NCBI GenBank assembly: GCA_038870595.1 | Contig: JAVZJU010000002.1 | Location: 1-64,000 of the forward strand | Reading direction: 5' to 3' | DNA from: Candidatus Bathyarchaeia archaeon | GTDB taxonomy: Archaea > Thermoproteota > Bathyarchaeia > Bathyarchaeales > Bathycorpusculaceae | Length of the DNA: 64,000 bases | Part shown: in pieces, positions 36,414-54,506 of the stretch | Position numbering within the stretch: the stretch's first letter is position 1 | Layout: every line of letters begins with the position of its first letter | The notes under the pieces: model-generated | Seen by the model: only the letters and a program-made list of their open reading frames with translations | What the model was told of the DNA's origin: nothing | Database searches by the model: none | Position numbers and translations under genes: made by a program

Positions 36414-39400
36414 TTATTTTCTCTTGCGTTTTGTTAGGCTTAAAAGCGAGGCGAATAGTGCCATCAGCATTGTGTACGCCATTGCTGGTGTTATTGGAGT
36501 GTTTTTAGTTAGGGCTATTGAGTATCCTCCAACTGGGACGGATGAGACTGTTACTCGGGCGGGGTCTGATTGGGCTGGGTTGCCCGCAGCATCCGTAACC
36601 TTCAGCATTACGTAATATGTGCCGGTTGCTGTCGGCGTAAAGACAAAGCTGCTGGATGTCGCTCCTGGGACTGGATTGTTGTTTACGAACCATTGGTATG
36701 TGTAGGGTGGTGTTCCGCCGCTAGCGGTGGATGTGAAGGTTACTTGTTGCCCCACCAGTATTGAGACGCTCATGGGGCTTATCGAAACTGTTGGCGGTGT
36801 TGGCGCCGTCTTAAAGAAGGCTTTTAATACGTAGTTGTTGTTCATTGTGACCGTGTAAGTTGTGGCTGTGCCCACATTTGTGCCATTAAGCTCCCAATGG
36901 TCAAAAATATAGCCGCTGTTTGGAATTGCCGTGACTTGAACCAGCGAGCCAGCAGAATAAGTGTATGTGCCCGGAGCCGGATTCGTTGTGCCGCCCGTTG
37001 TTGTCTCGATTTTCAGCGTGTAGGTTGGCACCACTGCAGTGTAGTGGGCGGTGGCGGTATGGGGTGCATTCATAACCACTGTTATTGGGTTTACCCCGCT
37101 TCCCTGCGATGCGCCGTCGACATCCCAGTATTGGAACGTGTAACCCGCCACAGTTGGCGCGGTGAGCTGAACGCTCTGCGCGGAATCATACCAGCCCTCT
37201 CCCGGAATCGTCGCAATGCCTGGCGGGTCGGTGCGCACAGTCAAATAGTATTGGACTTGGTAGGAGGCGCTTACAGTGAAGGGTGCATTCACGGTTTGTG
37301 GCGATGGCGGATTAACGCCTATTAGGATGTAGCGTACTCCTAGAACCGCCCCTGGAACAATGTCTTGGTAGGCGTATGTGATTTGGGAGCCCGCAAGAAC
37401 CCAGACTGTGAAGGGCACTGTTTCTGTTGGGTCTGTGTCAGCCGTGTAGGTGACTGTTGGAGCCACGCCAGAACCCGTCTGCGTGAAAGTTACAGCATAC
37501 TGGGTCTTCCAGTTTGCCACAGCCGTTTTTGGACCATCCATAATTATTGGGTTGCTTTGGGCGTAGTTTGTTCCGGAGGCGTCGCCGCCCCAGCTTACAA
37601 AAACTCTGCGGGTTCCGTTCCCATGGTCAACCAAGCCTGTATTCAGTGTTGCGTAGGCTGTTGCTCCGCTTGGATACCAGCCTTCTCCGCCCACTGTGCC
37701 GAAGGGGGAGGTAACCGTCAAATAATATTCTAGGGTGTAGTGGGCGGTGGCTGTGTGATTAGCGTCCATAACCACTGTTATCGGGTTGCCATTCTTTGGC
37801 GTTCCGTCAATATCCCAATAGCTAAACTTGTAACGCACACCAAGCGAAACTGGGACAGAATCTGGAGCTGTAAGCTCTACTCCTGTGCCTTCGTTATACC
37901 AGCCTTCACCTGGAATTGTCGTTACGCCAGCGGGGTCTGTCTTAACTGTTAGGTAGTATCTGCGTAAAACAACCGTGACTGTTTTCGTTTCTGTGTCCCA
38001 TCTGCCCTCACTATCTGTAACGTTTAGCGTTACGATGTAGTCGCCTGCTGATTCATAAACATGAGTTGTTATCGGATCACTTTCTTCAACTATTGGCGTA
38101 CCATCACCAAAATCCCAAGCATAGGTGACTATCGTTCCGCCGTCGGGTGTGGATGCTGAAGCATCAAAAGTAACCGTTTCGCCTCTCTGGGGATAGTAGG
38201 GAGTCCACCAGAAATCTGCAATGGGAGCCTTCTCAACAGTTATCTTCTTTGACGCGGTGTCCCATTTTCCTTCGCTGTCAGTAACGTTTAATGTAACTGT
38301 GAAAGTGCCATAAGTTGAATACGCATGGGTTATTACTGGACTGCTTGTTGTTGTGACGTTACCATCACCAAAATCCCAAGTATAACTGACTATTACTCCT
38401 CCATCTGGTGAGGAGGCAGAGGCATCAAAAGTAACAAGCTCATGGACAAGCGGGTCTGGCGGCGAAAAAGTGAACGCGGCAACTGGATGTTGGCTAACAT
38501 GGATTGTGGCGGTTTCATCATCCGTCAAGCCATCGTTATCCGTGACTGTTAGCTTAACAGAATAGTCTCCATAAGATGTGTACTTGTGGGTTATTATCGG
38601 GTTAGATGTTGTAGTAATGTTGCCATCACCAAAATCCCACTTATAGCTTACAATATAGCCGTCTGGGTCATAGCTTCCAGAAGCATCAAAAGTAACAAGC
38701 TCATTAACCTCCGGATAAGTTGGAGCATACGTGAACGCTGCGAAGGGTGGCTGAGGTGGCGGAGGCCCTGCTTGAAAGAAAACTGTGGAGTCGGCTGAAA
38801 GCGGGTTGTGAACTATCTGACCATCCCAGGTCACGCTTCCAGAAGTCGACTTTCCATAAGCGTCAAAATGCATTCTCACACCAGTAGGATCGGAAAAAGC
38901 CACAGAAACAACCAATGTTTTATAGCCTTTTTTAGGAATCAAACCCACATTAATGACGGTGTCGTTAAAATAGGTTGGGTAAACATCGCCACTAGGCCAA
39001 GTCCAAAGCTTATAGGGTTTAGGCGTACCCCAATGAAAAGCGGATTTAGGCACGCTCGTGCCATTAACAACCAAAGAAACAAGCTTACCATAACCAGCAT
39101 CGTTAAGTGCAATAACCAAACGAGTATCATAAGACCTCAAAGAACTACTCGTATTATTAATTCGGACAAGAAAAGTTTGAGAAGCCCCGGTCAAATTCAA
39201 AAACCAACACTCAGAAAGCCAAGGATCCGTGTTATAACCTAGATAAGTACCTTCAGGCAAAGAAACCTTAAGAATAGCACAGGGCGTCGCACTAACAGGA
39301 TGAACAAAAACCGTGCAAACCACCAGAAAATCCAGTAAAAACATTAATAGTAACAAATGCTTAAACTTTGAATGCAGATGCCCTCTCCCCTTCGGCAAAA

Positions 39401-41619: not shown

Positions 41620-43671
41620 TTAAATTTTTGATGTTTTGAAAACTTTTTTCTTGGGAAAAGTTTTTGTTGCAGCTATTATGAGCGACGCCATCAACAGAGC
41701 CATCAGTAGCAGGTGGATTTGCTCAGACACCATACCTGACCCTTGAACTTTTACGACTGCATCGTAGTCTTCGAATACAAATTCTACGTAAATGTAAGTG
41801 TTTGTGTTGTCAGAGGTTATTTGGGGTGTGACTTCTACACCGTCTATGTAAACTTTCCAGCTGTCCCATATGAGATCTTTTGGAAGGGTTATGTTTACAT
41901 AAGCTGATGTGCCCGGAGCACCAGTGACTTGTAGAAATTCAATCCATGCGCCTGCAATGTTGTGGTTTATTGCGTTTGCAATTACTGATGTATTAGTGTG
42001 GGTTAAGATTGTGAAACCGAGCAGTTGATGGGCTACGGGGGAGACCAGCTTGTAAGTGTAAGTGGCGTTTTCTATCGTGAATGGTATGTCATTTTCTGCA
42101 GCGTTTAGTATAAATGTGTCCTCATACGGGTTGACCAAGCCCACTGTACATGTAGATTGAGGTGAAAGTGGTTGACGAATTATTTTTAGTTTTACTTGGC
42201 ATAGGACACCTGTGCCGTTAAACGTCCAATAGGGGTCGTTTATGTACGTGCAACCCCAGCTTACATAACCTGGACCAACATCTAGTGACGGAGTTATCAT
42301 TGCCCTGTTGGCACCAGCGAAAACGTGGTCTGATGGAAGAGATATTTCTGTGAAGTTTAGGAGTGTTGGGTCCCAGGTTAGATGGATCTGCCAGTTCTGC
42401 AAGTCCTCAACATCAACAACAGTGACATTGAAGGTTATTTCATCTCCCACTTTAGTCATGTTTGAGTAGTAGGTTGTTACTCCGTTGGCTGCCGTGACTC
42501 TGATGATGGCTGTGGGTGTTACCACTCTGACCGTGGCTGTTTTTTCTAATGTGGTACCTGCTGAGTCTGTCACCTTAACTTTTACATATTCAACGCCTTC
42601 GGTTGAGAAGGTGAAGGTTGCGGATGTCTGGTTTTCGTACGCCGTTTCTTCTATGTCGTTTCGGAACCATTGTATTTTATAAGGCGGCACTCCGCCTGAA
42701 ATTGTGGCAGTGAATGTTTTACTTCCACCAACATTAATGATAACCGTAGCTGGCATCAATTGTAATGATAATTCTGCAAGTTTCAGATAGGATGAAGCAT
42801 TTTTGCTAACCCCGACATAGTCGGTTACTTGGACTGTCACTTTATGAAGACCTGCCACTGTTATTGGGTAGCATTCCCAAGAAGTTTGGTTAAAGGCTTC
42901 TGTGACTTCTATTTCCGTGCCATTTGGCCATTGGAAGAACCATTGATATGTGTAGGGCAATGCTCCGTAAAGTGCTGTGGCTGTAAAGGTTTTGGTTTCG
43001 CCATAGTTCACTTTTATTGGGCTTGTATACGTGCCTAAGGGACTTATAGAAACCGTCAAATCGTCAATGTATGTGTAGGTTGCATCTTCCACCGTGAAGA
43101 GTATGTCGTATCCCGGTCCATTTAGTAGGAACGTGCTGTATCCGATTTCTGCTAAGGTGAGGTTGCAGGTTGCTGGGAAGGATGGTGGGGTTAAGATTTT
43201 TAATTTCACTTGGCATAGGACGCCTGTTCCGTTAAACGTCCAATAGGGGTCATTGATATATGTGCAGCCCCACATAACGTAGCCTGGACCAACATCTGGT
43301 GGTGGGGTTATCATAGATCTTGCTCCCGGAGTGCCTGGGGGTTGGATCGCTGAATCAATTGGGGCGAAAACGTGATCCCTAGGCAGATAAATGCTCGAGT
43401 ACTCAAGGAGTACTGGGTCCCAGGTTAGTTTAATCTGCCAGTTCTGCAAGTCCTCAACATCAACAACAGTTATGTTAACGATGAACGTGTCTCCTGGCTT
43501 AGTAGTGTTGGCGTAAAATGTGTTATTAACAGGTAAGACCACAATTTTTGTTCCGTCCTGCGCACTTGTTTGGGGCGTGAAGAGTGGAATCATGCCTAGC
43601 ATCAGAAAAGCAGAGATTAACATTGGAAAAACTTTCCTTATACTTTTATGTAAGTTCATCTGAATTTTCAC
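41620..43671 (-). CDS. Membrane-anchored scaffoldin-like protein with two cohesin-like modules
   Basis: Signal peptide. Two ~150-aa modules: PGDTFIVNITVVDVEDLQNWQIKLTWDPVLLEY...WGCTYINDPYWTFNGTGVLCQVKLKI, repeated at aa ~390-520. Two Ig-like PPYxYQWF domains. C-terminal TM plus KKK. Confidence 0.65.
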   Translation of the reverse strand: MKIQMNLHKSIRKVFPMLISAFLMLGMIPLFTPQTSAQDGTKIVVLPVNNTFYANTTKPGDTFIVNITVVDVEDLQNWQIKLTWDPVLLEYSSIYLPRDHVFAPIDSAIQPPGTPGARSMITPPPDVGPGYVMWGCTYINDPYWTFNGTGVLCQVKLKILTPPSFPATCNLTLAEIGYSTFLLNGPGYDILFTVEDATYTYIDDLTVSISPLGTYTSPIKVNYGETKTFTATALYGALPYTYQWFFQWPNGTEIEVTEAFNQTSWECYPITVAGLHKVTVQVTDYVGVSKNASSYLKLAELSLQLMPATVIINVGGSKTFTATISGGVPPYKIQWFRNDIEETAYENQTSATFTFSTEGVEYVKVKVTDSAGTTLEKTATVRVVTPTAIIRVTAANGVTTYYSNMTKVGDEITFNVTVVDVEDLQNWQIHLTWDPTLLNFTEISLPSDHVFAGANRAMITPSLDVGPGYVSWGCTYINDPYWTFNGTGVLCQVKLKIIRQPLSPQSTCTVGLVNPYEDTFILNAAENDIPFTIENATYTYKLVSPVAHQLLGFTILTHTNTSVIANAINHNIAGAWIEFLQVTGAPGTSAYVNITLPKDLIWDSWKVYIDGVEVTPQITSDNTNTYIYVEFVFEDYDAVVKVQGSGMVSEQIHLLLMALLMASLIIAATKTFPKKKVFKTSKI

Positions 43672-43726: not shown

Positions 43727-45397
43727 CTATATAACTCTGTATCGCTCTTTTGGACTAGGCTCCTTTTCAGGTCTCTTCTTGTACCAGACAACAGTAACCC
43801 CGAGGGCTCCAAAAAAGGCTATAGCTGCATATAATTCCCAGCCTGTGCCGGATTCGCTTTGAGCTTGTATTACGGTTACATGTATGTCATGTGATATTGA
43901 TGAGTATAGTCCTTCGTCGTCGAAGACTATGAGGGTGACTGTATAGTCTCCTCCTTGTCCAGTATATGTAAATGTCGCTACTAGTTCTGTTGGCTTGGTT
44001 ATGTTGTAGGCTTGCATTTGGGTTTCTTCCATTTCTCCGTAGAAGTCCCATATGGCGTATACGATTTCTCCGTCTTCATCATACGTGTATCTTTCAGTTT
44101 CTGTGCCATATGCGTTGAAGATGACTTCTTGGTCTGGCATAGGTTGCAGTGGTGTCCATGTAAAGTTGACTATTGGGCGCTGTCCCACAAAGATTATTTT
44201 GCTTGTTGAATTGTAAAGTCCGTCGTTGTCAAAGGCTGTTAGGGTGACGTTGTAAAGGCTGTTTTTGGAGAGGGTGAACGTTACGTTTTCATCCGTCGTG
44301 GTTTCGTTCCAGAACTCAACGGGTACATAGTTTATTTTTACGCCTTTTGGCTTGAATTGTAGGCGGGTTAAGTTCCATAAGTATTGGGTGATGGTTCCAT
44401 CTGGGTCAAAGCTTCCTGTCGCGTTAAGCGTTATTGTTGCATTAGCCCCTATTGGTACGTAGGGGTTTTCAGGGTCGTAAGTGAAGCTTATCTGTGGGGG
44501 AATTCCAACAAAAATTACTTGCGTTTTTGAACTGTTTTGGTTTTCGTTGTCTGTCACCGTAAGGTTGACGTACTTTATTCCGTATGTTGTATATGTGTGA
44601 TTGACGCTTTGCTGGTTTGTTGTTGTGTTTGTTCCGTCTCCAAAGTCCCAAGTGTAGTTTGCAATATAGCCGTCTGGGTCGTAGCTTCCAGAAGCGTCAA
44701 AGGTCACTGGTTGGTTTGGTTTTGGGTATTGGGGCTGCCATGTGAAAGCCGCTATTGGCGGAGATTTAGCCCCATAAACTGTGACTTGGAAGGATTCGGA
44801 TGTAAACGGAATTTCAATTGAATCTGAGTTCCATAAGAAGGAGTCATCGTCATAGTCTGGGCTTCCTGTTGGAATTATGCTCAGCGTGAAGGTTCCTATT
44901 TTTATGGCTGTGAAGTTTATTTGGCAAAGTATTGCCTGAGAAGTTGTTACGGCGTCGTTCCAGTTGAGGAGGCTTGCGCCTAGAAAGACGTAGCCATAGC
45001 CTGGAGGAGCCTTTCGGGGTTGTTGATTATAGATCTCCGGTTGTACCTGCTGTATTTTTTTGTTGTAGAATACGAAGTTTGGGTTGTTTGTGGGTAGCCA
45101 TGCACCTGTACATTTAACTTTGCTATATTCGAAGCTTATTGCCACTTGAAAAGTAACTATGTTTTGTGTTAAACCCGTAAGTGTAACATTCACGGTGAAT
45201 GAATAGCCCCCTAACGGGATGGGAGTGGATTCGTTGCCCAATATGACGCTGTTCTCTCCAGTTTTTGAATCGATAATCCGGATTGTCCTCTCTTGAGCTT
45301 CTGCAAAAAATCTTAATTGGCTGGAAACGGTTAAAAGCATAATTTGACCTAATATCAAAATAATGAGAGCTTTGTTAAGTAATTTCACCATTTTCAC
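43727..45397 (-). CDS. Membrane-anchored surface protein: divergent cohesin-like N-domain + PKD domains + C-terminal TM
   Basis: N-terminal TM. FTVNVTLTGLTQNIVTFQVAISFEY...ILCQINFTAIK resembles the cohesin-like pattern. ANYTWDFGDGTNTTTNQQSVNHT PKD. C-terminal TM plus KKRPEK. Paralog of 52962..54506. Confidence 0.6.
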   Translation of the reverse strand: MKMVKLLNKALIILILGQIMLLTVSSQLRFFAEAQERTIRIIDSKTGENSVILGNESTPIPLGGYSFTVNVTLTGLTQNIVTFQVAISFEYSKVKCTGAWLPTNNPNFVFYNKKIQQVQPEIYNQQPRKAPPGYGYVFLGASLLNWNDAVTTSQAILCQINFTAIKIGTFTLSIIPTGSPDYDDDSFLWNSDSIEIPFTSESFQVTVYGAKSPPIAAFTWQPQYPKPNQPVTFDASGSYDPDGYIANYTWDFGDGTNTTTNQQSVNHTYTTYGIKYVNLTVTDNENQNSSKTQVIFVGIPPQISFTYDPENPYVPIGANATITLNATGSFDPDGTITQYLWNLTRLQFKPKGVKINYVPVEFWNETTTDENVTFTLSKNSLYNVTLTAFDNDGLYNSTSKIIFVGQRPIVNFTWTPLQPMPDQEVIFNAYGTETERYTYDEDGEIVYAIWDFYGEMEETQMQAYNITKPTELVATFTYTGQGGDYTVTLIVFDDEGLYSSISHDIHVTVIQAQSESGTGWELYAAIAFFGALGVTVVWYKKRPEKEPSPKERYRVI

Positions 45398-45495
45398 CCT
45401 TGATTATCTTAAAGTCTCTTGGATAAATGAGATTAAGTTGAATATTTATGTTTGTTGCCCAGAAGGATTTAAAGCGGTATGGAAAAATGGGGGTA

Positions 45496-47685
45496 TTAGC
45501 AGCGTTTCATAAAGTTCATGCAGCATGTACCAATGTCTCGAAGGTCGATTCTCCCATCCCTGTTCAAGTCATAGTAGTGGTCCCACCTTGGATCACCTGG
45601 TTTTGCCCCGTAGCGGCTGCATACGTCGTTAATGTCCCGCATATCCACGACTCCATCGCCGTTAACGTCGCCCATGATTCTTATTTTGACTTTACCATCT
45701 TCAAGGGTGTTGTCTGACAAGTTGAATTCGTATGGTACTGGTCCAGCCAGAGCTGAGATTGTGTAATTGTGACAGTATGGAACATTCTTGGTGTCCCAAC
45801 TTATGATTATTGTTAATTCTTCGTTAGGCGGCAAGTCGTTAACTGTGACTGTTGGTCCGAGATTGCTGTCATAGTAGATTTTCACTTCAAAAGTTTCTGT
45901 TATGTTTCCCTTGTTTTTAACCGTCACAGTGATGTTAACTATCCAGCCTTGATAAGCGATATTCAAATCCGTGGACAAAGAGGTGACTGCTACATCCCTT
46001 ATTAATCCTATAAATATTCCGTGGTGGACTTCATGAGTTACTGGCTCATTATTGATGTTTAGAAGCAGCGTATCGGTGAGGTTTATGGGGCTTACACCCA
46101 AAGCTACAACGACGAACTCGACCCTCATTACGGGTTTAGGCTCGTATGTTGTTATTCCTTGGCGATATGTTATGTTTGCCCAGATATAGCCAGCCTCATC
46201 GTCTATCAAAATTTTCTTGAGAGGCGTTTGTCCGGATATGGGTAAAACTGCCACATTAATCTCCAGTATTACTGATGGAATATATGTCAAATTGAATATG
46301 CATGTTTTAAGGTTTTCAACATCATCCACCGTCACATTTATTGTAAATGTTGTTCCAGGCAAGTATTCCGGACCGCTGACTTCGCTTGGGTCAATTGCCA
46401 GCGTAGCGAGTAGAACATTATTGAAATATCCGTCTTCACTTGTCGCCGGAATAGGATTGCCTAACGGGTCTCGCAAATCAACATCAGCAAGTTTCAGGAT
46501 CGTCCGCCCTAAGTCTAAGACTTGAAATGTCACCGTTGCAAGTTTTCCGTTTCCCTCCGCCACATCTGATGGGGAAGTTAGTTGGCAACTCATGTAAACA
46601 CGACCATGAGTGGAGTTGTAATCATTCTCGATTGTAAAGGTGAAGCTTGTTGGACCTATCGATGATAAGAAGTCTCCTTCATACACGTCTGTGGCTGATA
46701 GTAGAGTTCTGTTAAAGAATATTGCTGCTTCCCAAGAATGGAGGGTTACAGCATCCCTTATCAAAAGGCTTATGTTAAATGCTTTCCCAGGCGTAAGGGA
46801 CGGGTCAACAATACTATGCGGGTCTATATAAACAACAGGTCCACCAGTCCTTCGGACGATTGCCGTGGCGTTAGCTTTCGCACTTGCCTTGTCTGTAACT
46901 TTCACTGTTACTTTATGGTCGCCCAACAATGTTATTGGCGGAGTTGTCCAAACCGTTGAGTTTTCAGCGTTTTTGTCCTCTATTTCCGTGCCATTAGGAT
47001 ATCTAAAATACCATTGATACTTGTAGGGGGTTGGACCGTTTTTGGCTGTTGCCGTGAAAGTTACTTGACCGCCTGGATCAACTACAACAGGTCCAGGAGG
47101 GCTTAAAGTAACTTTCAGCTCATCAATGTACGTGTAGGTTGCATCTTCCACCGTGAAGGGTATGTCGTATCCAGGTCCATTTATTAAGAACGTGTTGTAT
47201 CCGATTTCTGCCAAGGCGAGGTTGCATGTTGCTGGGAAGGACGGAGGCGATAGGATTTTCAGTTTTACTTGGCATAGAGTCCCTGTGCCGTTAAATGTCC
47301 AGTATGGCTCATTAATATATGTGCAGCCCCAAATCACGTAGCCGGGGCCTGTTTCTGGCGGTGGAGTTATCATTGCTTTTCCAGAACCGGCGAAGACGTG
47401 GTCTGGTGGAAGGGAAACCGACACGTATGCCAGTAGTGCTGGATCCCATGTTAATTTTATTTGCCAATTTTGCAAGTCAACAACGTCAACAACAGTTATG
47501 TTAACTGTGAATGTGGATCCTGGAAGGGTCACATTTGCATAAAATTTGTTTGTGGCGGGCAAAACCTTCAATTTTGTGCTGCCAGGTCCAGATTTTACTG
47601 GGATTGCTGGTAACAAGGCAAGAGTCAATGTTAAAAGAATTAAAGCTGTTGAGAGCTTGGCTCCCCTTTTAGCATTTAGAAGCAT
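45496..47685 (-). CDS. Adaptor scaffoldin-like protein: three cohesin-like modules + CARDB-like domain + C-terminal type-I-like dockerin
   Basis: Signal peptide. Cohesin-like 1 (GSTFTVNITVVDVVDLQNWQIKLTWDPALL...WGCTYINEPYWTFNGTG), 2 (PGKAFNISLLIRDAVTLHSWEAAIFF) and 3 (PGTTFTINVTVDDVENLKTCIFNLTY). Dockerin DVNGDGVVDMRD...DLNRDGRIDLRD. Confidence 0.7.
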   Translation of the reverse strand: MLLNAKRGAKLSTALILLTLTLALLPAIPVKSGPGSTKLKVLPATNKFYANVTLPGSTFTVNITVVDVVDLQNWQIKLTWDPALLAYVSVSLPPDHVFAGSGKAMITPPPETGPGYVIWGCTYINEPYWTFNGTGTLCQVKLKILSPPSFPATCNLALAEIGYNTFLINGPGYDIPFTVEDATYTYIDELKVTLSPPGPVVVDPGGQVTFTATAKNGPTPYKYQWYFRYPNGTEIEDKNAENSTVWTTPPITLLGDHKVTVKVTDKASAKANATAIVRRTGGPVVYIDPHSIVDPSLTPGKAFNISLLIRDAVTLHSWEAAIFFNRTLLSATDVYEGDFLSSIGPTSFTFTIENDYNSTHGRVYMSCQLTSPSDVAEGNGKLATVTFQVLDLGRTILKLADVDLRDPLGNPIPATSEDGYFNNVLLATLAIDPSEVSGPEYLPGTTFTINVTVDDVENLKTCIFNLTYIPSVILEINVAVLPISGQTPLKKILIDDEAGYIWANITYRQGITTYEPKPVMRVEFVVVALGVSPINLTDTLLLNINNEPVTHEVHHGIFIGLIRDVAVTSLSTDLNIAYQGWIVNITVTVKNKGNITETFEVKIYYDSNLGPTVTVNDLPPNEELTIIISWDTKNVPYCHNYTISALAGPVPYEFNLSDNTLEDGKVKIRIMGDVNGDGVVDMRDINDVCSRYGAKPGDPRWDHYYDLNRDGRIDLRDIGTCCMNFMKRC

Positions 47686-47767
47686 TTTCTTCTCCTCTCC
47701 TCGTTATTACTGCTCACTATTTTGATATAAAGATTCTGGAAATAAATTCTACCGAGAGGATGCCGTT

Positions 47768-50700
47768 CTAGTAATATTTGGCAGTCTTGCCATAGTTGCC
47801 ACAGGCGATGCCGATGTCACGCATATCTACTTTGCCATCATTATTCACATCTTTATTGGGGTCCCAGTTGGGCTTTGACGGGTTTGTTCCGAACTTGTTA
47901 CATATCGCCCCCACATCGCGCATATCCACTTTGCCCTCTGGAACTCCTTGAGCTATGCTTGTTACATCTCCTGAGATTACTATTAGAACCGAACATTTGA
48001 TGTAAAGGTTGTTTGAGATGTTGCCTTCTCCTAAAACCGGCACTGCATAAGCACTAACAGTATAATTTCCATATGCCAAGTTTGTTGTGTCCCAAGATAA
48101 ACTGGTAATTATAGATTGCCCAGGCAGTATCGTTTGGATAAATTTTGTTCCTATGGTCTGGTTGGCATACGTGTTATTGGACCAGTAAACGATTATTTGA
48201 ACATTTGACTCTGTAAAGTTACCGTTATTTTTTGTCGTTACGTAAATTAGGGTTCCATAATCTCTACCTATATATTTTTTCATGGGAATTGGTTTACTTA
48301 GGTTCACGTTTGGTGTGCTAGCTGTAACATTTTCTATACTTATGTCAGCGTATTCTACTCTGATTTGGCAGGATTTACTATTGTCAGACGGGTTTTCATC
48401 CACAATTGGTGGTTGGAGAGTGGCGCTAACAGATATTATGTAATTTCCAGCAGACAGACTTGTCGTGTCTAAATAGATTGTGAGGGTTTGCTGTTTTCCC
48501 CTTCCAAGGTTTATAGAAGTTGTGTAGAAGTTTGTGGTATTGTATGATGCTGTAACACTTATTGTTTCAGTGAATGATCCTTTATTCCATATAGTTGCGT
48601 TGATTGTTGCTGTTTCACCTTTTTTGACCGGCGTCTTTAGAGGTATGACTTTTAAGACGGCTACATCATGGTTTGAGCCTTGTATCGCATAGAGTTTGCC
48701 ATCTTTGGAGGTTACGTATATGATGTCATTTAGTACAGCTGGTGATGAGTCAATTATTCCTCCAGTTTGGTAGCTCCACCAAATTTCGCCACTTTCTTCT
48801 TCTATTGCGTAAAGCCTTCCTGTTGTCGTTCCCACTATAACTTTGCGTTCGGCCACTAGAGGAGATGACCATTTTATTGGTCCAATTTCTTTACTCCAAA
48901 GTAAGTTGCCAGTCAACGCGTTAAGGGCATATAGTTTACCGTCTGTTGAGCCTACAAAAACTGTATTGTCAGCTATCGCTGGTGAAGAGTATATCTCGCT
49001 GTTCGTCGTTAAGTTCCATAAAATTGTGCCAGTTTGGGCGTCTAAAGCATAGATTTTCTTGTCTCTTGAACCTGTGAAAACTCTATCGTTGGCAAACGAT
49101 GGGGATGAGTAGATACCGACTCCTGGTGCTAGGTTTTTCCTCCATAGAATTCCCCCAGTTATTTCATTTAATGCGTATATACTGCCATTTTGGGTTGCCA
49201 CGAACACCTTGCCGCTTGCTGCAGCGGGAGACGTGTAGACCGCTCCGTCGAGGGTGCTTGTCCAGATAGTTGTTCCGTTTATATAAAAGGCGTAGACTTT
49301 TCCATCTGTGGAACCGATAAATACTTTATTACCATAGATGACTGGAGAGGAATAGACTGGACCTCCAGTTGTTATGCTATATTTTACGCTACCATTTGTT
49401 GCATTTACTGCATATACAAGTCCATTTTCTGATCCTATGAAGAGTAAGTTGTCTGTGTAGGCTGGGGAGGAGTAGATTTTGTATCCTGGGGCTGGTGTTG
49501 TTTTCCATATGAGCGCTCCGTTTGTTGCATTAAAAGCGTATAGTGTTCCGTTTATTGACCCTATGAAAACTTTATTTCCAACAATTGCGGGGGAGGATTG
49601 CATCCATTGTTCGGTGCTTGTTGACCCTATTGTTTTTTGCCATTTGGTTGAGTTAGCTGTCGATGCTAACGAGGAGGATGAGCCTTTGTGTTTGGGGTCG
49701 TGGCGGAACATGGGCCAAGCTTCTGTTACTATTACTAGTCTTTCAGTTGAGTTGTATATTCCTTTATTGTTGGTTACTGTTAATTTGACCGTGTAGTATC
49801 CGCCCATGTCGTATATGTGGGTAACTATCTGGCCTTTCGCTGTGGTTCCGTCGCCAAATTGCCATGTATAGTCTATGATGGTTCCGGTTGGGTCGTAACT
49901 TGCTGAGCCGTCGAAGGTGACTGTTTGGCAGACCATTGGATTACTTGGAGAATATGTAAACTGTGGAACGGGCCCTAGAACTAAGAAGCTTTTTATGTCA
50001 ATCGCTGTTGAAATTTGATATTCGGTTGTTGCATATATCACATATTTGTCAGCAGGTATATCCGTTGCTGGGAGTTTAAATGTTACATTAAAGTATTGGG
50101 GTTGCGGTGGCATTGAGGGAGTTGTTGTGCTTATATAGAATTTTGCCTTTTTTTCTGGACAATATGGGGCTCCTAGATTTTTTGGGTAGTCCTTGAATAG
50201 GCTTACTGATACTTGTGCTTCGCCAGTTGGCGCGTGACTTGGTATTGGCATCGAGGAAAGAAGCTTTACGGTTTGACCTCCTTCAATTGTAAAACCTGAC
50301 GTAAAGAATGCTGTTAGGGGTGTGTTATCAGAGCATTGCACATAAACGGCTATTAATACATACCTGTTTACTACGTCGAAGTTTTTTATTGTTATATTGA
50401 GGTAGGCCGTGGTTCCACGGCTAAAAAGGTTCTTTGGTGTTCCTTGTGAGTCGCAGGTGTACATGTCTAAGATTTGTACGCGCCAGTATCTGCCTGAAAC
50501 GTCGCCTGTTTCAACCGTTCTTAAGACAAAGGGGTTTCCGTTTGGGAAGTCTACCTGGATGGCAGCTATTGTGTCGGTTTTTAGTGCTCCGTCCAAGGTT
50601 ACGTTTCCTGTTATTATTACTGTTTCTCCTGCGTTGTAGGTTGGTTTGTTTGTTGTTATGTTTATGTCTAGTATGTAGGCTTTTGCTTGTTGTGTTAATA

Positions 50701-50794
50701 TGCTTATGTGAAGGGTTAGAATTATTAATATTAAGAACGTTGTGATTGTGAGTTTTTTGATTTGGTTTTTTGGGGATGAATTCATAAGCTTCAC
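47768..50794 (-). CDS. Secreted PKD + PQQ-like beta-propeller + CARDB-like protein with C-terminal dockerin
   Basis: YTWQFGDGTTAKG...KLTVTNNKG PKD. Eight or more repeats of the G.LYA.NA.NG...W type (PQQ-like blades). Dockerin GKVDMRD...DVNNDGKVDMRD. Confidence 0.7.
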   Translation of the reverse strand: MKLMNSSPKNQIKKLTITTFLILIILTLHISILTQQAKAYILDINITTNKPTYNAGETVIITGNVTLDGALKTDTIAAIQVDFPNGNPFVLRTVETGDVSGRYWRVQILDMYTCDSQGTPKNLFSRGTTAYLNITIKNFDVVNRYVLIAVYVQCSDNTPLTAFFTSGFTIEGGQTVKLLSSMPIPSHAPTGEAQVSVSLFKDYPKNLGAPYCPEKKAKFYISTTTPSMPPQPQYFNVTFKLPATDIPADKYVIYATTEYQISTAIDIKSFLVLGPVPQFTYSPSNPMVCQTVTFDGSASYDPTGTIIDYTWQFGDGTTAKGQIVTHIYDMGGYYTVKLTVTNNKGIYNSTERLVIVTEAWPMFRHDPKHKGSSSSLASTANSTKWQKTIGSTSTEQWMQSSPAIVGNKVFIGSINGTLYAFNATNGALIWKTTPAPGYKIYSSPAYTDNLLFIGSENGLVYAVNATNGSVKYSITTGGPVYSSPVIYGNKVFIGSTDGKVYAFYINGTTIWTSTLDGAVYTSPAAASGKVFVATQNGSIYALNEITGGILWRKNLAPGVGIYSSPSFANDRVFTGSRDKKIYALDAQTGTILWNLTTNSEIYSSPAIADNTVFVGSTDGKLYALNALTGNLLWSKEIGPIKWSSPLVAERKVIVGTTTGRLYAIEEESGEIWWSYQTGGIIDSSPAVLNDIIYVTSKDGKLYAIQGSNHDVAVLKVIPLKTPVKKGETATINATIWNKGSFTETISVTASYNTTNFYTTSINLGRGKQQTLTIYLDTTSLSAGNYIISVSATLQPPIVDENPSDNSKSCQIRVEYADISIENVTASTPNVNLSKPIPMKKYIGRDYGTLIYVTTKNNGNFTESNVQIIVYWSNNTYANQTIGTKFIQTILPGQSIITSLSWDTTNLAYGNYTVSAYAVPVLGEGNISNNLYIKCSVLIVISGDVTSIAQGVPEGKVDMRDVGAICNKFGTNPSKPNWDPNKDVNNDGKVDMRDIGIACGNYGKTAKYY

Positions 50795-50880
50795 ACCTAA
50801 TATTTTCTGAAGGTTTGATTTAGCTTTTATTTTTGTTTTTACACAAAAAATGGGGGTGTTGGTGGGGTTTGGCGTTTATT

Positions 50881-52839
50881 TTATGGTTTGACTATGTAGA
50901 AGTCTATGGTGTTGGTTACTTCTGGGCAGTAGGGTACTCCGCCGTTCCATGGGAATTTGTCGAAGGCGTTGGCGAAGACTTTTCCTTTGCCTACTACGGC
51001 GTTGGTTGGTAGTGGTATGACTGGTTCCCATGGGTCATATGTCTTGAAGGGTGGTGTTTCGCATGCTAGGTAGTCGTAGTATATGTATTCGCCCCATCCT
51101 ACCTCTGTTTGCAGGTAGTCTGAGCCTATGAAGAATCCTAGTTCGTCGTAGACGGTTACTGTTAGGGTTACGTTGAGCTTTTGCATGCTGTAGGTTCCAT
51201 ATATTACTGTGAAGTCTAATGGGTCTCCGCCTGTCTTGCGTTGCACGTACTGCGTGTGTTTGGGTTCAACGCTTAAGACGTCCACCTTCCACCATACCCA
51301 GAAGCCTAAGGTGTCATTAACTTTTTGTTGGGCTACTTCAACTGTGGCTATTACGCGCCATTTGCCGAAGATTTCGTCTTCTGGGTTTTCGCATGGCCAT
51401 GGTATCCTGAAGGATACATGGGCTATGCCGTTTTGGTCTGTTGTTGCTTCTCTATATATGTCGTAGCCGTTGTGAATTATGTGGAAGCCTACAAGCTTCT
51501 GTTGTACTGGATACTCATTGTATTCTACTTTCGCGAATAGGTCAACAAGCTCTTGTGGCGCGAACATGTCGCTGGGCATGTGTGGGCCTTGTCCGCCATA
51601 TGGGCTTGGGTATTGCGTGTACAGGTCTATTTTGAGACCGAGAATCCTCATTGGCGCCCTGTAGTGGCAGTCCACCGTCGAGCTTGATATGGCCATCATG
51701 TACTGGTTTAATGCGTATGTGTCTTCGTCGAATTTGAAGTCTATAAACTCGATCCAAGTCCAATCTTCTTTGGGTGATATTGTTTCGTAGATGGCTTTGA
51801 AGTAAACCGTCATCAGCCTTGCTCCGTCAGGTCCAACACTTACGAATGGCGGGTGATATGGTTCGGCAGGTGGACTGTCTGGCAATAGTATGGCGCCAAA
51901 CATTGAGTAGTTGTAGCCGTCTGGAATCGGTGTTAATGGCGGTGGCCTGTTATGCTGGTTTATGTCTGCTACATACATGACTCCGCCTGGGTAGTATTGG
52001 AATGCCTCTAGAAGTGTTCCATTCGCATAGTACATGCCCGTGGGACCTGGGTCTGGCACTATGAAGGTTGTGTTCCACATGAGGCTGAACTGGAAGCCTA
52101 TTATCTCCCAGCCTGCAGCAACATTTTTAACCCATATTTCAAGTCCGAAGACGTCGCCTATCTTTTCTGGTTTGCAGACGGCTGGCTTAATGAAGAATGT
52201 TGGGTAGTAGGGTGGAGCAACCCACTCATACTTGTAGTGGGCATCAACCCCTGTGAAGGTAATGTCATAGCCAGCACCGTTCAATAGGAATGTGCTTTCG
52301 CCCTCCCCTGCAATTTGAATGTCGCACTCCAAAACCTTTGGTGAAATTTGAGAAACTCCTTTTTTAACCTTCAATTCCAGCCTGAAGAGGGTTCCAGTGC
52401 CGTTGAAAGTCCAGTAGGGGTCATTGATGTATGTGCAACCCCAAACAAACATGCCTGTTCCTATTGTCGGGGTTGGAGTTATCATCGACCTTGCAGCTCC
52501 GGCGAAAACATGGTCTGCTGGAAGCTCATGACCAGCGTACTCAAGGAGCGATCCATCCCATGTTACGTTAACTTGCCACAGTTGCAGGTCGGTTACATCC
52601 CTAACAGTGATGTTTACCCAGAAAGTACCCCCGACGCCGATCATCTCTGATGTGAAGTAGAACAGATGATCTCCGTCTGTAGGATCAACAACCTCAACAG
52701 TTGTCCCGGGCTCAGCTTTACCAGAGGGTACAAAGACCAGCAGTGTGCTTAATGTCAGTAGAACAGCCAATGTGATACTAGAAAGTTTGCTAAATTTCCT
52801 TTCCATTTTCTCCCTTCTCCTTCTATTCAGCAATATCAA
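50881..52839 (-). CDS. Secreted protein with two cohesin-like modules and a large uncharacterised domain
   Basis: Signal peptide (likely start MERKF). GGTFWVNITVRDVTDLQLWQVNVTWDGSLLEY...WGCTYINDPYWTFNGTGTLF, and a second module GDVFGLEIWVKNVAAGWEIIGFQFSLMW. No TM and no dockerin. Confidence 0.6.
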   Translation of the reverse strand: MILLNRRRREKMERKFSKLSSITLAVLLTLSTLLVFVPSGKAEPGTTVEVVDPTDGDHLFYFTSEMIGVGGTFWVNITVRDVTDLQLWQVNVTWDGSLLEYAGHELPADHVFAGAARSMITPTPTIGTGMFVWGCTYINDPYWTFNGTGTLFRLELKVKKGVSQISPKVLECDIQIAGEGESTFLLNGAGYDITFTGVDAHYKYEWVAPPYYPTFFIKPAVCKPEKIGDVFGLEIWVKNVAAGWEIIGFQFSLMWNTTFIVPDPGPTGMYYANGTLLEAFQYYPGGVMYVADINQHNRPPPLTPIPDGYNYSMFGAILLPDSPPAEPYHPPFVSVGPDGARLMTVYFKAIYETISPKEDWTWIEFIDFKFDEDTYALNQYMMAISSSTVDCHYRAPMRILGLKIDLYTQYPSPYGGQGPHMPSDMFAPQELVDLFAKVEYNEYPVQQKLVGFHIIHNGYDIYREATTDQNGIAHVSFRIPWPCENPEDEIFGKWRVIATVEVAQQKVNDTLGFWVWWKVDVLSVEPKHTQYVQRKTGGDPLDFTVIYGTYSMQKLNVTLTVTVYDELGFFIGSDYLQTEVGWGEYIYYDYLACETPPFKTYDPWEPVIPLPTNAVVGKGKVFANAFDKFPWNGGVPYCPEVTNTIDFYIVKP

Positions 52840-52961
52840 TTTTGTCGCTAGTAAAATTTAAGGATTCCGGAATTATCTTCTATCCAAAACAAAAATAAGC
52901 ATGCATCAACATTTTAATTCAAGATAAACTAAAAACACAAAAGCCCAAGGAGGACAAACAC

Positions 52962-54506
52962 GTGCAAAAAAGGCGGACATCAACAATAATAATCATTGCG
53001 GCAATCCTATCTATTGGAATCCTGTCCCAGTCGCTAAATCTTCAATCCTTAGCACAAACACGTGTAATAAAGATTGCTGATATGAAAACAGGCTCAAATT
53101 TCATAACCCTCGGAAGTCAAAGTAATCCAATACCTTTAGGCGGATACCAATTCACGGTTAACGTCACCCTAGAAGGCCTAACAAACAACCTTTACGTTTA
53201 TCAAATCGCAGTTAAATTTGACAAAGACAAAATTCGCTGCACATCCGCGTGGATAAACAGAAACGACCCAAATTTTGTCTTCTACTCCCACAAAAGCCTC
53301 ACCTACATTCCACCCGCTGCCATAGACAACACTGAAGGATACGTGGTTTTAGGCGCCTCATTGATAGGCGACCGCCAAGTAGACGTTTCAAAGGGGCTGT
53401 TATGCCAAATAAACTTCACAGCCATAAAAAAGGGCGAAACACAAATTGAACTCATTCCAACTGGTTACGAACCCTACGACACATTTTTAGGATACTTTGA
53501 AGACGATAATTTAAGGTACATATCCTTCACAACAGAGAACTTTAACTGTATAGTTCAAGCATCACAAACTCCACCATTAGCTTCATTCACATTTAACCCA
53601 AAAAACCCCGAAGCAAACCAACCAGTGACCTTTGACGCTTCTGGAAGCTACGACCCAGACGGCTATATTGCAAACTACACTTGGGACTTTGGAGACGGAA
53701 CAAACACAACAACAAACCAGCAAAGCGTCAATCACACATTCACATCGAACGGCGCCTACAACGTCACGCTGACAGTTTACGATAATAGCACCCGCAGCAG
53801 TTCAACACGCGAAGAAGTGCAGGTGGGACGCCTCCCTATCGTTAAATTTACATATCAACCCGCCCAAATACAACCGTTCCAACCAGTTACATTCAACGCC
53901 GCCGAAAGCCAAGACCCCGATGGAACAATAGCCAGATACGTCTGGAATTTTGGAGACGGCAACACGACAACCACTTACACCCATCAAATAACACACATCT
54001 TCAATAGCAGAGGCGCTTTCAGAGTTAATTTAACAGTTTATGATAATGAAGGACTACACAACTCAACGGCTAAAGAAATTTTTGTTGGAAAACCCCCATC
54101 TCCAAACTTCACCTACACCACTCCGCGAGCCGTCGAAGACTACTTTATCGTAACCTTTAATGCATCACAAAGCCAAGCTGGAGAAGAAGATGGCTATATT
54201 GTTTCCTACGTGTGGGATTTCGACGACCACATCGGCATAGTAGAAACACAATCTCCAATAATAGAACACATTTACATGGAGGGAGACTATGAGGTAAAAC
54301 TCACAGTTTACGACAACAACGGATTACACAATTCAATCACAAAAACTATAAAAGTTAAGGTAGAGAAAACGAAAGAAACGAATGGAACAGATATAACAAT
54401 CTACCTCGTCGCAGCTGCGGCCGCGATATTAGTTATTATTGTGGTGTTAAAACTGGTTAGAAAAAAATCCACATCTATAAAACAAAAGAAGAAAAAGAGA
54501 AAGTAA
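52962..54506 (+). CDS. Membrane-anchored surface protein: cohesin-like N-domain + 3-4 PKD domains + C-terminal TM/KKKKRK (paralog of 43727..45397)
   Basis: N-terminal TM. YQFTVNVTLEGLTNNLYVYQIAVKFD...LLCQINFTAIKKG. WDFGDG / WNFGDGN PKD motifs. C-terminal TM. Confidence 0.6.
   Translation: MQKRRTSTIIIIAAILSIGILSQSLNLQSLAQTRVIKIADMKTGSNFITLGSQSNPIPLGGYQFTVNVTLEGLTNNLYVYQIAVKFDKDKIRCTSAWINRNDPNFVFYSHKSLTYIPPAAIDNTEGYVVLGASLIGDRQVDVSKGLLCQINFTAIKKGETQIELIPTGYEPYDTFLGYFEDDNLRYISFTTENFNCIVQASQTPPLASFTFNPKNPEANQPVTFDASGSYDPDGYIANYTWDFGDGTNTTTNQQSVNHTFTSNGAYNVTLTVYDNSTRSSSTREEVQVGRLPIVKFTYQPAQIQPFQPVTFNAAESQDPDGTIARYVWNFGDGNTTTTYTHQITHIFNSRGAFRVNLTVYDNEGLHNSTAKEIFVGKPPSPNFTYTTPRAVEDYFIVTFNASQSQAGEEDGYIVSYVWDFDDHIGIVETQSPIIEHIYMEGDYEVKLTVYDNNGLHNSITKTIKVKVEKTKETNGTDITIYLVAAAAAILVIIVVLKLVRKKSTSIKQKKKKRK

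What the first reader, a model, noticed from the sequence alone, without database searches (positions are those of the whole stretch)
44593..44718. Perfect 126-bp inverted repeat shared by two paralogous surface-protein genes 8.9 kb apart
The segment 44593..44718 is identical to the reverse complement of 53614..53739 (within 52962..54506, + strand). It encodes QPVTFDASGSYDPDGYIANYTWDFGDGTNTTTNQQSVNHT in both genes, while the flanking sequence has diverged. This implies recent gene conversion between the PKD domains. It could also mediate inversion of the intervening ~9 kb, which includes the adaptor and PQQ-dockerin genes.
Basis: seen in the sequence. Interest (0 to 1): 0.6.

Follow-up and report, generated by a model that had tools for sequence, protein, structure and literature searches.

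The report
Gene-conversion patch between two archaeal surface-protein genes
Two diverged, oppositely oriented surface-anchor genes in a hot-spring Bathyarchaeia genome share one perfectly identical 126-bp stretch. It is a real but ordinary footprint of recent DNA copying from one gene into the other, and nothing shows that it flips the 9 kb between them.

Summary
Window 44593-44718 is the exact reverse complement of 53614-53739. The match cannot be extended, and it is the longest exact repeat in the 64 kb (the next is 38 nt).

It lies in the first PKD domain of two paralogous genes with the layout cohesin, three PKD domains, membrane anchor: A (43727-45397, minus strand) and B (52962-54506, plus strand). 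Elsewhere these genes are only 51% identical in DNA.

Inside the tract all 40 codons for shared residues are identical, against 78 of 184 outside (p = 2e-13). A second MAG of the same species carries the tract, exact in A and 125/126 in B. A syntenic sister species (~80% nt identity) has the same gene order but no shared run longer than 19 nt. Tract characters match the A clade, so A was probably the donor and B the recipient.

The best reading is a recent, short, non-crossover gene conversion. I found no evidence of inversion: three assemblies are collinear, no recombinase gene is in the window, and the repeat is not conserved.

One caveat: 126 equals k-1 for the SPAdes k=127 used for the sibling MAG. 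Paralog-specific flanks and the sibling's 121-nt run argue against an artefact.

This is a new instance of a known process and of low-to-moderate interest.

The parts
44593..44718 (-). Tract copy in gene A, first PKD domain, residues 228-268. Probable donor copy.
   Evidence: Exact 126-nt match to the reverse complement of 53614-53739. The identical sequence with A-type flanks is present in the sibling MAG contig JAVZOA010000043.1. It carries A-clade characters (NQ..NHT, no 1-codon deletion, and codons shared with A orthologues P0002 and P0003).
53614..53739 (+). Tract copy in gene B, first PKD domain, residues 219-259. Probable recipient copy.
   Evidence: Exact match. In the sibling MAG it is 125/126, with one synonymous C>T at window position 53618, giving a longest exact run of 121 nt. 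The B orthologue in sister species L002 has a different sequence with a 1-codon deletion here.
43727..45397 (-). Gene A, 556-aa ORF (called as 543 aa in NCBI). Layout: signal/TM, cohesin-fold domain, three PKD domains, C-terminal TM helix and a conserved ...RPEKEPSPKERYRVI tail.
   Evidence: ORF list. Pfam PKD_4 E=2e-30. AlphaFold model of the N-domain has pLDDT 96.8, and the 50 listed Foldseek PDB hits are all cohesin modules. The Pfam Cohesin model hits 7 of 20 family members.
52962..54506 (+). Gene B, 514 aa (= NCBI MEM3616524.1). Same architecture as A but with a lysine-rich tail. Paralog of A.
   Evidence: BLASTP of A against B gives 43% identity, E=7e-126. Pfam PKD_4 E=3e-55. Identity with P0018.
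44719..53613 (.). The 8,895-nt segment between the repeat arms. It holds the 5' parts of A and B (the two genes are head-to-head) and three minus-strand genes: 45496-47685 (cohesin/CARDB/dockerin adaptor), 47768-50794 (PKD/PQQ beta-propeller/CARDB/dockerin) and 50881-52839 (652 aa, no Pfam hit; cohesin-like N-terminus by DNA repeat family D1).
   Evidence: ORFs and Pfam. Repeat families. The same gene order and orientation are seen in the sibling MAG (L009) and in the sister species (L002).
38600..38696 (-). First PKD domain of a third PKD-rich surface protein (gene 36414-39473). It is 80% identical to the tract over 97 nt and shares the block GACCCAGACGGCTATATTG, including the lineage-specific Tyr-Ile codons.
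   Evidence: Self-BLAST. Codon alignment.

Best explanation
The repeat is the footprint of a recent ectopic (between-paralog) gene conversion.

Genes A and B are old paralogs encoding membrane-anchored cohesin-PKD proteins. They sit head-to-head at the two ends of a cohesin-dockerin surface-complex gene cluster in a hot-spring Bathyarchaeia genome (order B26-1, family UBA233, genus JAGTQI01).

The likely sequence of events is inferred, not shown. A break or stalled fork in the first PKD domain of B was repaired by homologous recombination. The template was the equivalent, most conserved part of A, 8.9 kb away in inverted orientation or on a sister chromosome copy. At most 126 nt were copied from A into B, and the event resolved without crossover, so gene order stayed the same.

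What is shown: the identity pattern, the sharp paralog-specific boundaries, the lineage-specific timing (after the split from the ~80%-identical sister species, before the split of two ~99%-identical strains), and the A-like character of the tract.

What is inferred: the recombination mechanism (RadA-type strand invasion or template switching seeded on less than 20-25 nt of pre-existing identity) and the non-crossover resolution.

The tract now forms a 126-bp inverted repeat. In principle it could support rare inversion that swaps the cohesin heads between the two PKD/anchor stalks, but nothing indicates that this occurs or is selected.
For: 1. The match is exact and maximal at 126 nt and is the longest repeat in the window.
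2. Synonymous sites: 40/40 identical codons at shared residues inside the tract, against 78/184 outside (Fisher p=1.7e-13). Background nt identity is 51%.
3. Flanks on both sides are paralog-specific and match their orthologues in sister species L002 (A_w-A_L2 73-80% and B_w-B_L2 76-81%, against about 48-54% between the A and B paralogs). Inside the tract A_w=B_w and both are about 73-75% identical to either orthologue. This is the classic phylogenetic incongruence.
4. Sister species L002 has the identical gene order and orientation, but its A' and B' share no run longer than 19 nt.
5. An independent MAG of the same species (GCA_038882535.1) differs from the window by 0.5-1.8% in this region. 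It has the tract exact in A and 125/126 in B, each with parental flanks.
6. Direction: the tract has the A-clade-specific ...NQ..(I/V)NHT segment and lacks the B-clade 1-codon deletion. Every site that looked B-like against A_L2 is also present in A orthologue P0003.
7. Only two copies of a 60-nt core of the tract exist in the species-representative genome.
8. Homogenised PKD cores are common in this protein family: 46 of 120 homologues have exact internal repeats of at least 15 aa centred on the same motif. In L006 two PKD repeats are 93% identical in DNA over 168 nt.
9. Precedent: conversion between inverted tuf paralogs (PMC5485169) and between archaeal paralogs (PMC4632066, PMC6053082).
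Against: - No reads were available, so the identity rests on assembled consensus sequences.
- The length, 126 nt, equals k-1 for the SPAdes k=127 used for the sibling MAG and probably for this one (PMC11094006). This is an uncomfortable coincidence.
- Before the event, homology was low: about 76-79% identity with runs of at most 19-24 nt, judged from the sister species. That is a poor substrate for classical homologous recombination and implies relaxed homology requirements or template switching.
- The donor direction rests on a few dozen informative sites. The central codons (YIANYT) are unique to this lineage, so a third, unsampled donor cannot be strictly excluded; the sibling MAG is only 71% complete.
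Confidence: 0.85

Rival explanations
1. Recombination switch. The inverted repeat is maintained because it mediates reversible inversion of the 8.9-kb segment. Inversion would exchange the cohesin heads and promoters of A and B between the two PKD/anchor stalks, in frame, and would rewire which downstream genes follow which promoter.
For: The geometry fits. The two genes are head-to-head, the tract is in the same reading frame at homologous positions, and inversion would give two intact chimeric genes and regenerate the repeat. In Salmonella, about half of the selected tuf conversions between inverted paralogs came with inversion (PMC5485169), so a locus that has converted may also cross over.
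Against: - All three assemblies (window, sibling MAG, sister species) are collinear.
- The repeat is absent from the sister species, which has the same gene arrangement, so it is not a conserved functional element.
- No tyrosine or serine recombinase gene was found among the window ORFs of at least 150 aa that were scanned; the ORFs left unscanned are overlapping antisense ones.
- No chimeric A/B protein appears among the top homologues in a 5.8-billion-protein search, although this test has low power.
- Neither assembly breaks at the repeat. The repeat is shorter than k=127 and than the reads I assume were 150 nt. Inferred, using my own knowledge of how SPAdes behaves: a substantial recombinant subpopulation would have created a branch there.
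Confidence: 0.06
2. Assembly artefact. The identity was created by the assembler or by polishing, for example collapse of similar paralogous k-mers, and the real B or A copy is different.
For: The length is exactly k-1 for the largest SPAdes k (127) used in the study that produced the sibling MAG. Both genomes are short-read MAGs.
Against: - A repeat shorter than k shares no graph vertex at k=127, so each copy with its own flanks must be supported by real 128-mers (inference from my own knowledge of the method).
- The boundaries coincide with ancestral paralog-specific differences seen in the orthologues (CCA/GCA and TAY/TTY).
- A MAG from a different sample, distinguishable by SNPs, has the same tract. 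Its B copy has one mismatch, giving a 121-nt run that is unrelated to k.
- I know of no assembler step that would produce a sharply bounded internal patch of identity between flanks that are 50% identical.
Confidence: 0.04
3. Third-party donor. Both A and B were converted independently, or in one event each, by a third PKD domain elsewhere in the genome, rather than A converting B.
For: The central codons (Tyr-Ile-Ala-Asn-Tyr-Thr) are found in neither the A nor the B orthologues. A 19-nt block including Tyr-Ile is shared with the first PKD domain of the neighbouring gene 36414-39473. The sibling MAG is 71% complete, so unsampled PKD genes may exist.
Against: The 60-nt core occurs only twice in the representative genome and only twice in the window. 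The third gene is only 80% identical over 97 nt. The 3' third of the tract is clearly A-clade in character.
Confidence: 0.04
4. Extreme purifying selection or convergence acting on the nucleotide sequence, for example an embedded RNA or regulatory element, keeps the two copies identical.
For: The tract covers the most conserved core of the PKD fold. In the sister species this core is also more similar between paralogs (76-79% nt) than the rest of the genes (about 48%).
Against: Orthologues of each gene differ from the tract at about 25% of positions, so the nucleotide sequence is not conserved over time. Synonymous identity between the paralogs in the sister species is only marginally raised (19/29 against 85/178, p=0.057). 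No Rfam family matches there.
Confidence: 0.01

Closest known systems
tufA/tufB gene conversion in Salmonella enterica (Hughes 2000; Paulsson, Hughes et al. 2017, PMC5485169)
   Same: Two paralogs lie in inverted orientation on one chromosome. Transfer is non-reciprocal and in contiguous tracts by homologous recombination. The same intermediates can resolve as inversion of the DNA between the genes.
   Different: The tuf genes are about 99% identical over 1.2 kb, 762 kb apart, essential, and the process was measured experimentally. Here the paralogs are 51% identical, 8.9 kb apart, and the tract is an isolated island seeded on very little homology. The organism is an uncultivated archaeon, and the event is inferred from sequence only.
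Concerted evolution of archaeal and prokaryotic paralogs (mtrA duplicates in methanogens, PMC4632066; survey in PMC6053082)
   Same: Paralogs within a genome are more alike than orthologues across species because of gene conversion. Archaeal examples are documented.
   Different: Those cases are long-lasting and recurrent over whole genes or domains. This one is a single recent patch of at most 126 nt with, at most, weak hints of earlier exchange at the same place.
Homogenised repeat modules in cohesin-dockerin scaffoldins (for example C. thermocellum CipA Coh3-Coh8, over 94% identical; abstract of bioRxiv 10.64898/2026.01.19.700288 as listed)
   Same: Repeated beta-sandwich modules of a cohesin-dockerin surface assembly are kept similar by recombination. 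This locus also shows 74-83% DNA similarity among its cohesin modules.
   Different: Those are tandem direct repeats within one gene in cellulolytic Firmicutes. Here the exchange is between PKD domains of two separate, inverted genes, and no dockerin-bearing carbohydrate-active enzyme was seen.
Programmed DNA inversion systems (Hin/Gin invertases, the R64 Rci shufflon, Bacteroides invertons)
   Same: Inverted repeats flank a segment. In shufflons the inversion swaps alternative parts of a surface-protein gene in frame.
   Different: Those systems use short conserved recombinase sites and a dedicated, usually adjacent, recombinase, and both orientations coexist. Here the repeat is a 126-nt stretch of coding homology, it is not conserved in the sister species, there is no recombinase gene, and only one orientation is seen.
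Non-cellulosomal archaeal cohesins (Archaeoglobus fulgidus, PDB 2xdh)
   Same: The N-terminal domains of A and B have the cohesin fold, and 2xdh is among the Foldseek hits. Dockerin-bearing partners are encoded next door.
   Different: Sequence similarity to solved cohesins is undetectable by profile search. The dockerin proteins here are a PQQ beta-propeller protein and a cohesin adaptor.

Membership tests
Ectopic (interparalog) gene-conversion tract | A contiguous run of identity between paralogs, far above background and including synonymous sites | tested here: met
   126/126 nt against a 51% background. 40/40 identical codons against 78/184, p=1.7e-13.
Ectopic (interparalog) gene-conversion tract | Phylogenetic incongruence: the tract groups paralogs within the lineage, while the flanks group orthologues across lineages | tested here: met
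   Four-sequence codon alignment with sister-species orthologues. No shared tract in the sister species.
Ectopic (interparalog) gene-conversion tract | Non-reciprocal transfer: one copy keeps its own ancestral-type sequence (donor) and the other is overwritten | tested here: inconclusive
   Tract characters fit the A clade (NQ..NHT, no deletion, codons shared with P0003), which favours A to B. However, six central codons are unique to this lineage, so the pre-event sequence of A cannot be reconstructed with certainty.
Ectopic (interparalog) gene-conversion tract | A real feature of the genome, not of one assembly | tested here: met
   A second MAG from another sample has the tract in both genes (126/126 and 125/126) with parental flanks. 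Read-level confirmation was not possible.
Programmed invertible DNA switch / shufflon | A dedicated site-specific recombinase encoded at or near the element | tested here: not met
   Pfam scans of 43 of the 46 window ORFs of at least 150 aa found no tyrosine or serine recombinase or invertase; the 3 unscanned ORFs overlap larger genes on the opposite strand.
Programmed invertible DNA switch / shufflon | Inverted repeats conserved among relatives that carry the element | tested here: not met
   Syntenic sister species L002 lacks the repeat; its longest shared run is 19 nt.
Programmed invertible DNA switch / shufflon | Both orientations coexist in populations | not testable with these tools
   Three assemblies share one orientation. 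Reads are unavailable. A metagenome scan for the tract core returned nothing.
Cohesin-dockerin surface assembly (context of the two genes) | Cohesin-fold module(s) on an anchored scaffold protein | tested here: met
   AlphaFold model pLDDT 96.8. The 50 listed PDB Foldseek hits are all cohesin modules (best E=5e-9), and 75 matches have E<=0.001. Pfam Cohesin hits in 7 of 20 family members and in the adaptor gene. A C-terminal TM helix is visible in the sequence.
Cohesin-dockerin surface assembly (context of the two genes) | Dockerin modules on partner proteins | tested here: met
   Pfam Dockerin_1 matches in 45496-47685 (E=7e-7, above the gathering score) and in 47768-50794 (E=5e-4, just below the gathering score).
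Cohesin-dockerin surface assembly (context of the two genes) | Cellulosome sense: dockerin-bearing carbohydrate-active enzymes | tested here: not met
   The dockerin proteins are a PQQ beta-propeller protein and a cohesin/CARDB adaptor, and no glycoside hydrolase domain was found. It should therefore be called non-cellulosomal.
PKD domain | Match to the Pfam PKD models over the tract region | tested here: met
   PKD_4 and PKD match at A residues 212-295 and B residues 204-283, E from 1e-30 to 1e-55.

The most novel reading that the evidence does not exclude
The conversion-generated 126-bp inverted repeat acts as a recombinase-independent flip-flop. Rare RadA-mediated inversion of the 8.9-kb segment would swap the cohesin heads and promoters of the two anchor proteins between their PKD/anchor stalks. 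It would also re-partition the operon, giving population-level variation in how an archaeal cohesin-dockerin surface complex is assembled. More broadly, the PKD core may be a recurrent conversion hotspot that keeps making such substrates in Bathyarchaeia surface-protein loci.
Probability: 0.06. Interest if true: 0.55.

Novelty: new member of a known kind. Interest (0 to 1): 0.22.

Why it matters
- It is a clean, datable example of homologous recombination acting between strongly diverged (51% identical) paralogs in an uncultivated archaeal class that has no genetics. The tract is short and its boundaries are sharp. This suggests relaxed homology requirements, or template switching, in this lineage.
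- It shows how modular surface proteins (PKD and cohesin repeats) in archaeal cohesin-dockerin loci evolve in concert.
- It creates a substrate that could invert an operon-sized segment.
- On the practical side, it illustrates that exact repeats just below the assembler k-mer size survive inside MAG contigs and need read-level validation.
- None of this overturns current understanding.

Tried and rejected
1. Exact look-up of gene B (twice: as the window ORF and as P0018) and of the NCBI version of gene A (P0122) in the contig index gave 'not on record' each time. The source contig of the window could therefore not be fetched.
2. A scan of JGI metagenome contigs for a 60-nt core of the tract gave 0 hits, so no further strains or alternative junctions were found.
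3. A profile of the N-terminal domain searched against PDB sequences gave no hit even at E<=10. The cohesin assignment needed a structure prediction and a fold search.
4. I looked for chimeric A-head/B-stalk proteins among the top database homologues and for disagreement between N-domain and C-terminal similarity across 23 family members. There were no clear chimeras. The test has low power because only two genomes of the species are public.
5. I tested whether the sister species shows an older conversion at the same spot. Synonymous identity is only marginally raised (p=0.057), so recurrence is not established.
6. A naive count of informative sites against a single A orthologue gave 14 A-like to 10 B-like. 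Adding a second A orthologue (P0003) showed that the 'B-like' sites are also A-clade states, so I dropped a bidirectional mosaic model.
7. I tested whether strain differences in the adaptor gene reflect conversion from the paralogous cohesin module. The window allele matches the paralog at 23 of 43 differing sites, against 11 for the sibling allele. This is suggestive only.
8. Literature searches for cohesin or dockerin in Bathyarchaeia/Bathyarchaeota found nothing specific to this locus.
Full report
**1. Observation**

Window 44593-44718 is exactly the reverse complement of 53614-53739 (126/126 nt). The match cannot be extended by a single base on either side. It is the longest exact repeat, direct or inverted, in the 64-kb window; the next is a 38-nt direct repeat between two cohesin modules. 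An ungapped comparison of the flanks falls to 52% identity on one side and about 70%, then about 35%, on the other. The repeat finder reports the wider similarity as a 297-nt arm pair at 75%.

**2. The two genes**

- The arms lie in ORF A (43727-45397, minus strand, 556 aa) and ORF B (52962-54506, plus strand, 514 aa).
- The proteins are 43% identical (E=7e-126) and share one architecture: an N-terminal hydrophobic leader, a ~180-aa domain, three PKD domains (Pfam PKD_4/PKD, E from 1e-30 to 1e-55), a C-terminal transmembrane helix and a basic tail.
- The ~180-aa domain is a cohesin.
  - An AlphaFold model built on 20 homologues has pLDDT 96.8.
  - Its 50 listed Foldseek hits in the PDB are all cohesin modules, including the non-cellulosomal cohesin of Archaeoglobus fulgidus, 2xdh.
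  - The Pfam Cohesin model hits 7 of 20 family members.
  - A sequence profile alone found nothing in the PDB.
- The genes are head-to-head, so the 8,895-nt segment between the arms contains both 5' halves. It also contains three minus-strand genes:
  - a 652-aa protein with no Pfam hit;
  - a PKD/PQQ-beta-propeller/CARDB/dockerin protein;
  - a cohesin/CARDB/dockerin adaptor.
- Downstream of A is a double-cohesin anchored protein (41620-43671). Next to B is an Opp/Dpp-type ABC transporter operon.
- The organism is a Bathyarchaeia archaeon. The sibling genome is classified as o__B26-1; f__UBA233; g__JAGTQI01 and comes from a Tengchong hot spring.

**3. Is the identity more than chance or constraint?**

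In a codon alignment, A and B are 51% identical in DNA outside the tract, and the next longest exact run is 28 nt. At residues that are identical in both proteins, all 40 codons inside the tract are identical, against 78 of 184 outside (Fisher p=1.7e-13). Synonymous sites are therefore saturated everywhere except in the tract. Protein-level selection cannot explain this.

**4. Comparative evidence**

*Sister species.* It is about 80% identical in DNA over 12 kb (ENA ERZ3623746 NODE_64, locus L002). It has exactly the same gene order and orientation (ABC transporter, B', 643-aa protein, PQQ-dockerin, adaptor, A', double cohesin).
- Its A' and B' share no exact run longer than 19 nt.
- In the four-sequence codon alignment the flanks group by orthology. 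A_w-A_L2 is 73-80% and B_w-B_L2 is 76-81%, against about 48-54% between the A and B paralogs of the window.
- Inside the tract A_w=B_w, and both are about 73-75% identical to either orthologue.
- The bases immediately outside the tract (CCA against GCA upstream, TAT against TTC downstream) are the same paralog-specific states seen in the sister species.

*Second MAG of the same species.* This is GCA_038882535.1, isolate DRTY-6_201912_bins_76. It covers the region on two contigs that are 99.5% and 98.7% identical to the window.
- Its A copy has the exact 126-mer with A flanks.
- Its B copy differs at one synonymous position (window 53618, AAC to AAT). That gives 125/126 and a longest exact run of 121 nt.
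- Its contigs break at window ~45280 and ~45911, not at the repeat.

*Timing.* The event post-dates the split from the sister species and pre-dates, or recurred around, the split of the two strains.

**5. Direction**

The 3' third of the tract carries features found only in the A clade...N-Q-x-x-(I/V)-N-H-T and no 1-codon deletion. These are shared by the A orthologues P0002 and P0003 and are absent from the B-clade proteins P0033, P0030 and P0023.

A count against one A orthologue gave 14 A-like to 10 B-like sites. All the 'B-like' sites are also present in the A orthologue P0003. The tract is therefore compatible with a wholly A-derived sequence, with A as donor and B as recipient.

Six central codons (YIANYT) are unique to this lineage. 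A 19-nt block containing Tyr-Ile is shared with the first PKD domain of the neighbouring gene 36414-39473, which may mark an older short patch.

**6. Mechanism**

The best-supported mechanism is non-crossover homologous-recombination repair (or template switching) that copied at most 126 nt from A into B. This step is inferred.

Judged from the sister species, the pre-existing homology was only about 76-79%, with runs of at most 19-24 nt around the WDFGDG motif. The event must therefore have been seeded on very short identity.

Homogenised PKD cores are frequent in this protein family. Of 120 homologues, 46 contain exact internal repeats of at least 15 aa centred on the same motif; P0020 has 56 aa and P0015 has 45 aa. 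The P0015 repeats are 93% identical in DNA over 168 nt. Exchange at this core therefore seems to be a general habit of these genes.

**7. Inversion**

Geometry allows it. A crossover within the tract would invert 44719-53613 and yield two in-frame chimeras, A-head/B-stalk and B-head/A-stalk. In Salmonella, about half of the selected conversions between the inverted tuf genes were accompanied by inversion (PMC5485169).

However, there is no support for it here:
- All three assemblies are collinear.
- The repeat is not conserved in the sister species.
- No recombinase gene was found among the window ORFs of at least 150 aa that were scanned.
- No chimeric proteins turned up.
- Neither assembly branches at the repeat.

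The sibling MAG was assembled with SPAdes at k up to 127 (PMC11094006). The 126-nt repeat is shorter than k and shorter than the reads, which I assume were 150 nt. Continuity through both copies therefore implies that the parental junctions dominate in both samples. This is an inference from my own knowledge of how SPAdes works.

**8. Artefact check**

126 equals k-1 for k=127, which needs to be stated openly. I could not think of an assembler step that creates a sharply bounded patch of identity between flanks that are 50% identical. The boundaries coincide with ancestral paralog-specific bases. The sibling assembly shows a 121-nt run with one internal mismatch. I therefore treat the length as a coincidence. 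Ascertainment may add to it, because longer exact repeats tend to break short-read contigs and so are less often seen inside one contig. Read-level confirmation is still the decisive missing step.

**9. Comparison with known systems and verdict**

This works like the classical ectopic gene conversion known from tufA/tufB, rRNA operons and archaeal paralogs such as mtrA (PMC4632066, PMC6053082). It meets the defining features I could test. It is not a member of the programmed-inversion systems: there is no recombinase, no conserved repeat and no second orientation. The surrounding locus is a non-cellulosomal archaeal cohesin-dockerin assembly.

The finding is real, well explained and a new instance of a known process. 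Its interest is low to moderate. The only notable open possibility is rare inversion mediated by the repeat.

Noticed in passing
window 46250-47750 (adaptor gene 45496-47685, cohesin modules): Divergence between the two strains is very uneven. It is 6-10% per 250 nt here, against 0 in 49000-50750 and about 0.5% in the A-side contig. In the part of the adaptor gene covered by the sibling contig, 64 synonymous and 31 non-synonymous codons differ. At 43 differing sites that can be aligned to the paralogous cohesin module at 42981-43530, the window allele matches the paralog 23 times and the sibling allele 11 times. This could be allelic import from a diverged lineage or a further interparalog conversion.
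   Followed up: partly
window 38600-38696 (gene 36414-39473, first PKD domain): A third PKD domain is 80% identical to the tract over 97 nt. It shares the block GACCCAGACGGCTATATTG, including the Tyr-Ile codons that the A and B orthologues of other species lack. This may be an older short conversion patch linking three genes.
   Followed up: partly
window 44899-44926 and 53403-53430: A second exact inverted match of 28 nt between A and B lies in the cohesin domain, around the conserved LCQINFTAIK motif. Runs of 19-31 nt occur at the same place in the other orthologue and paralogue comparisons (the B orthologue pair has a 22-nt run about 30 nt away), so it looks like a strongly conserved motif rather than a conversion.
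   Followed up: partly
window 42386-42423 and 43433-43470; 43040-43497 and 47099-47523: Cohesin modules are similar in DNA both within the 683-aa double-cohesin protein (a 38-nt exact direct repeat) and between that protein and the adaptor (75% over 458 nt, 83% over 282 nt). The sister species shows 81% over 546 nt at the equivalent place. Modules of this locus appear to evolve in concert.
   Followed up: partly
tract length against assembly parameters: The exact repeat length (126) equals k-1 for the largest SPAdes k-mer (127) used in the study that produced the sibling MAG (PMC11094006). I judged it a coincidence, but it should be checked against reads.
   Followed up: partly
sibling MAG contigs L001/L004 and L009, against window 45280-45911: The sibling assembly breaks twice in about 630 nt. 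This stretch covers the first 39 codons of gene A, the intergenic spacer and the dockerin-encoding 3' end of the adaptor gene. The cause is unknown; strain heterogeneity or a dockerin repeat are possibilities.
   Followed up: no
homologues P0020, P0015, P0017, P0013, P0082, P0089; locus L006 10655-10822 and 10919-11086: Many archaeal PKD-repeat surface proteins contain long exactly repeated peptide stretches (up to at least 80 aa) between their own PKD repeats, centred on the same xFDASxSxDPDGxIxxYxWDFGDG core. In L006 the two repeats are 93% identical in DNA.
   Followed up: partly
window 26054-26171 (+): Rfam finds a tRNA of 118 nt (45 bits) that ARAGORN does not report. The length suggests an intron-containing archaeal tRNA.
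   Followed up: no
window 18540-22361 (-): A single 1273-aa ORF carries RNA polymerase Rpb1 domains 1-5, so the largest subunit appears unsplit. From my own knowledge, it is split into A' and A'' in most archaea. Related locus L008 also has a 1272-aa gene.
   Followed up: no
window 36414-61673: The whole neighbourhood looks like one extracellular capture-and-uptake module. It contains several cohesin-bearing anchored proteins, two dockerin proteins, PKD-rich and NosD/beta-helix proteins, and an adjacent Opp/Dpp-type ABC transporter with an 875-aa solute-binding protein. The arrangement is conserved in L002 and partly in L006.
   Followed up: partly
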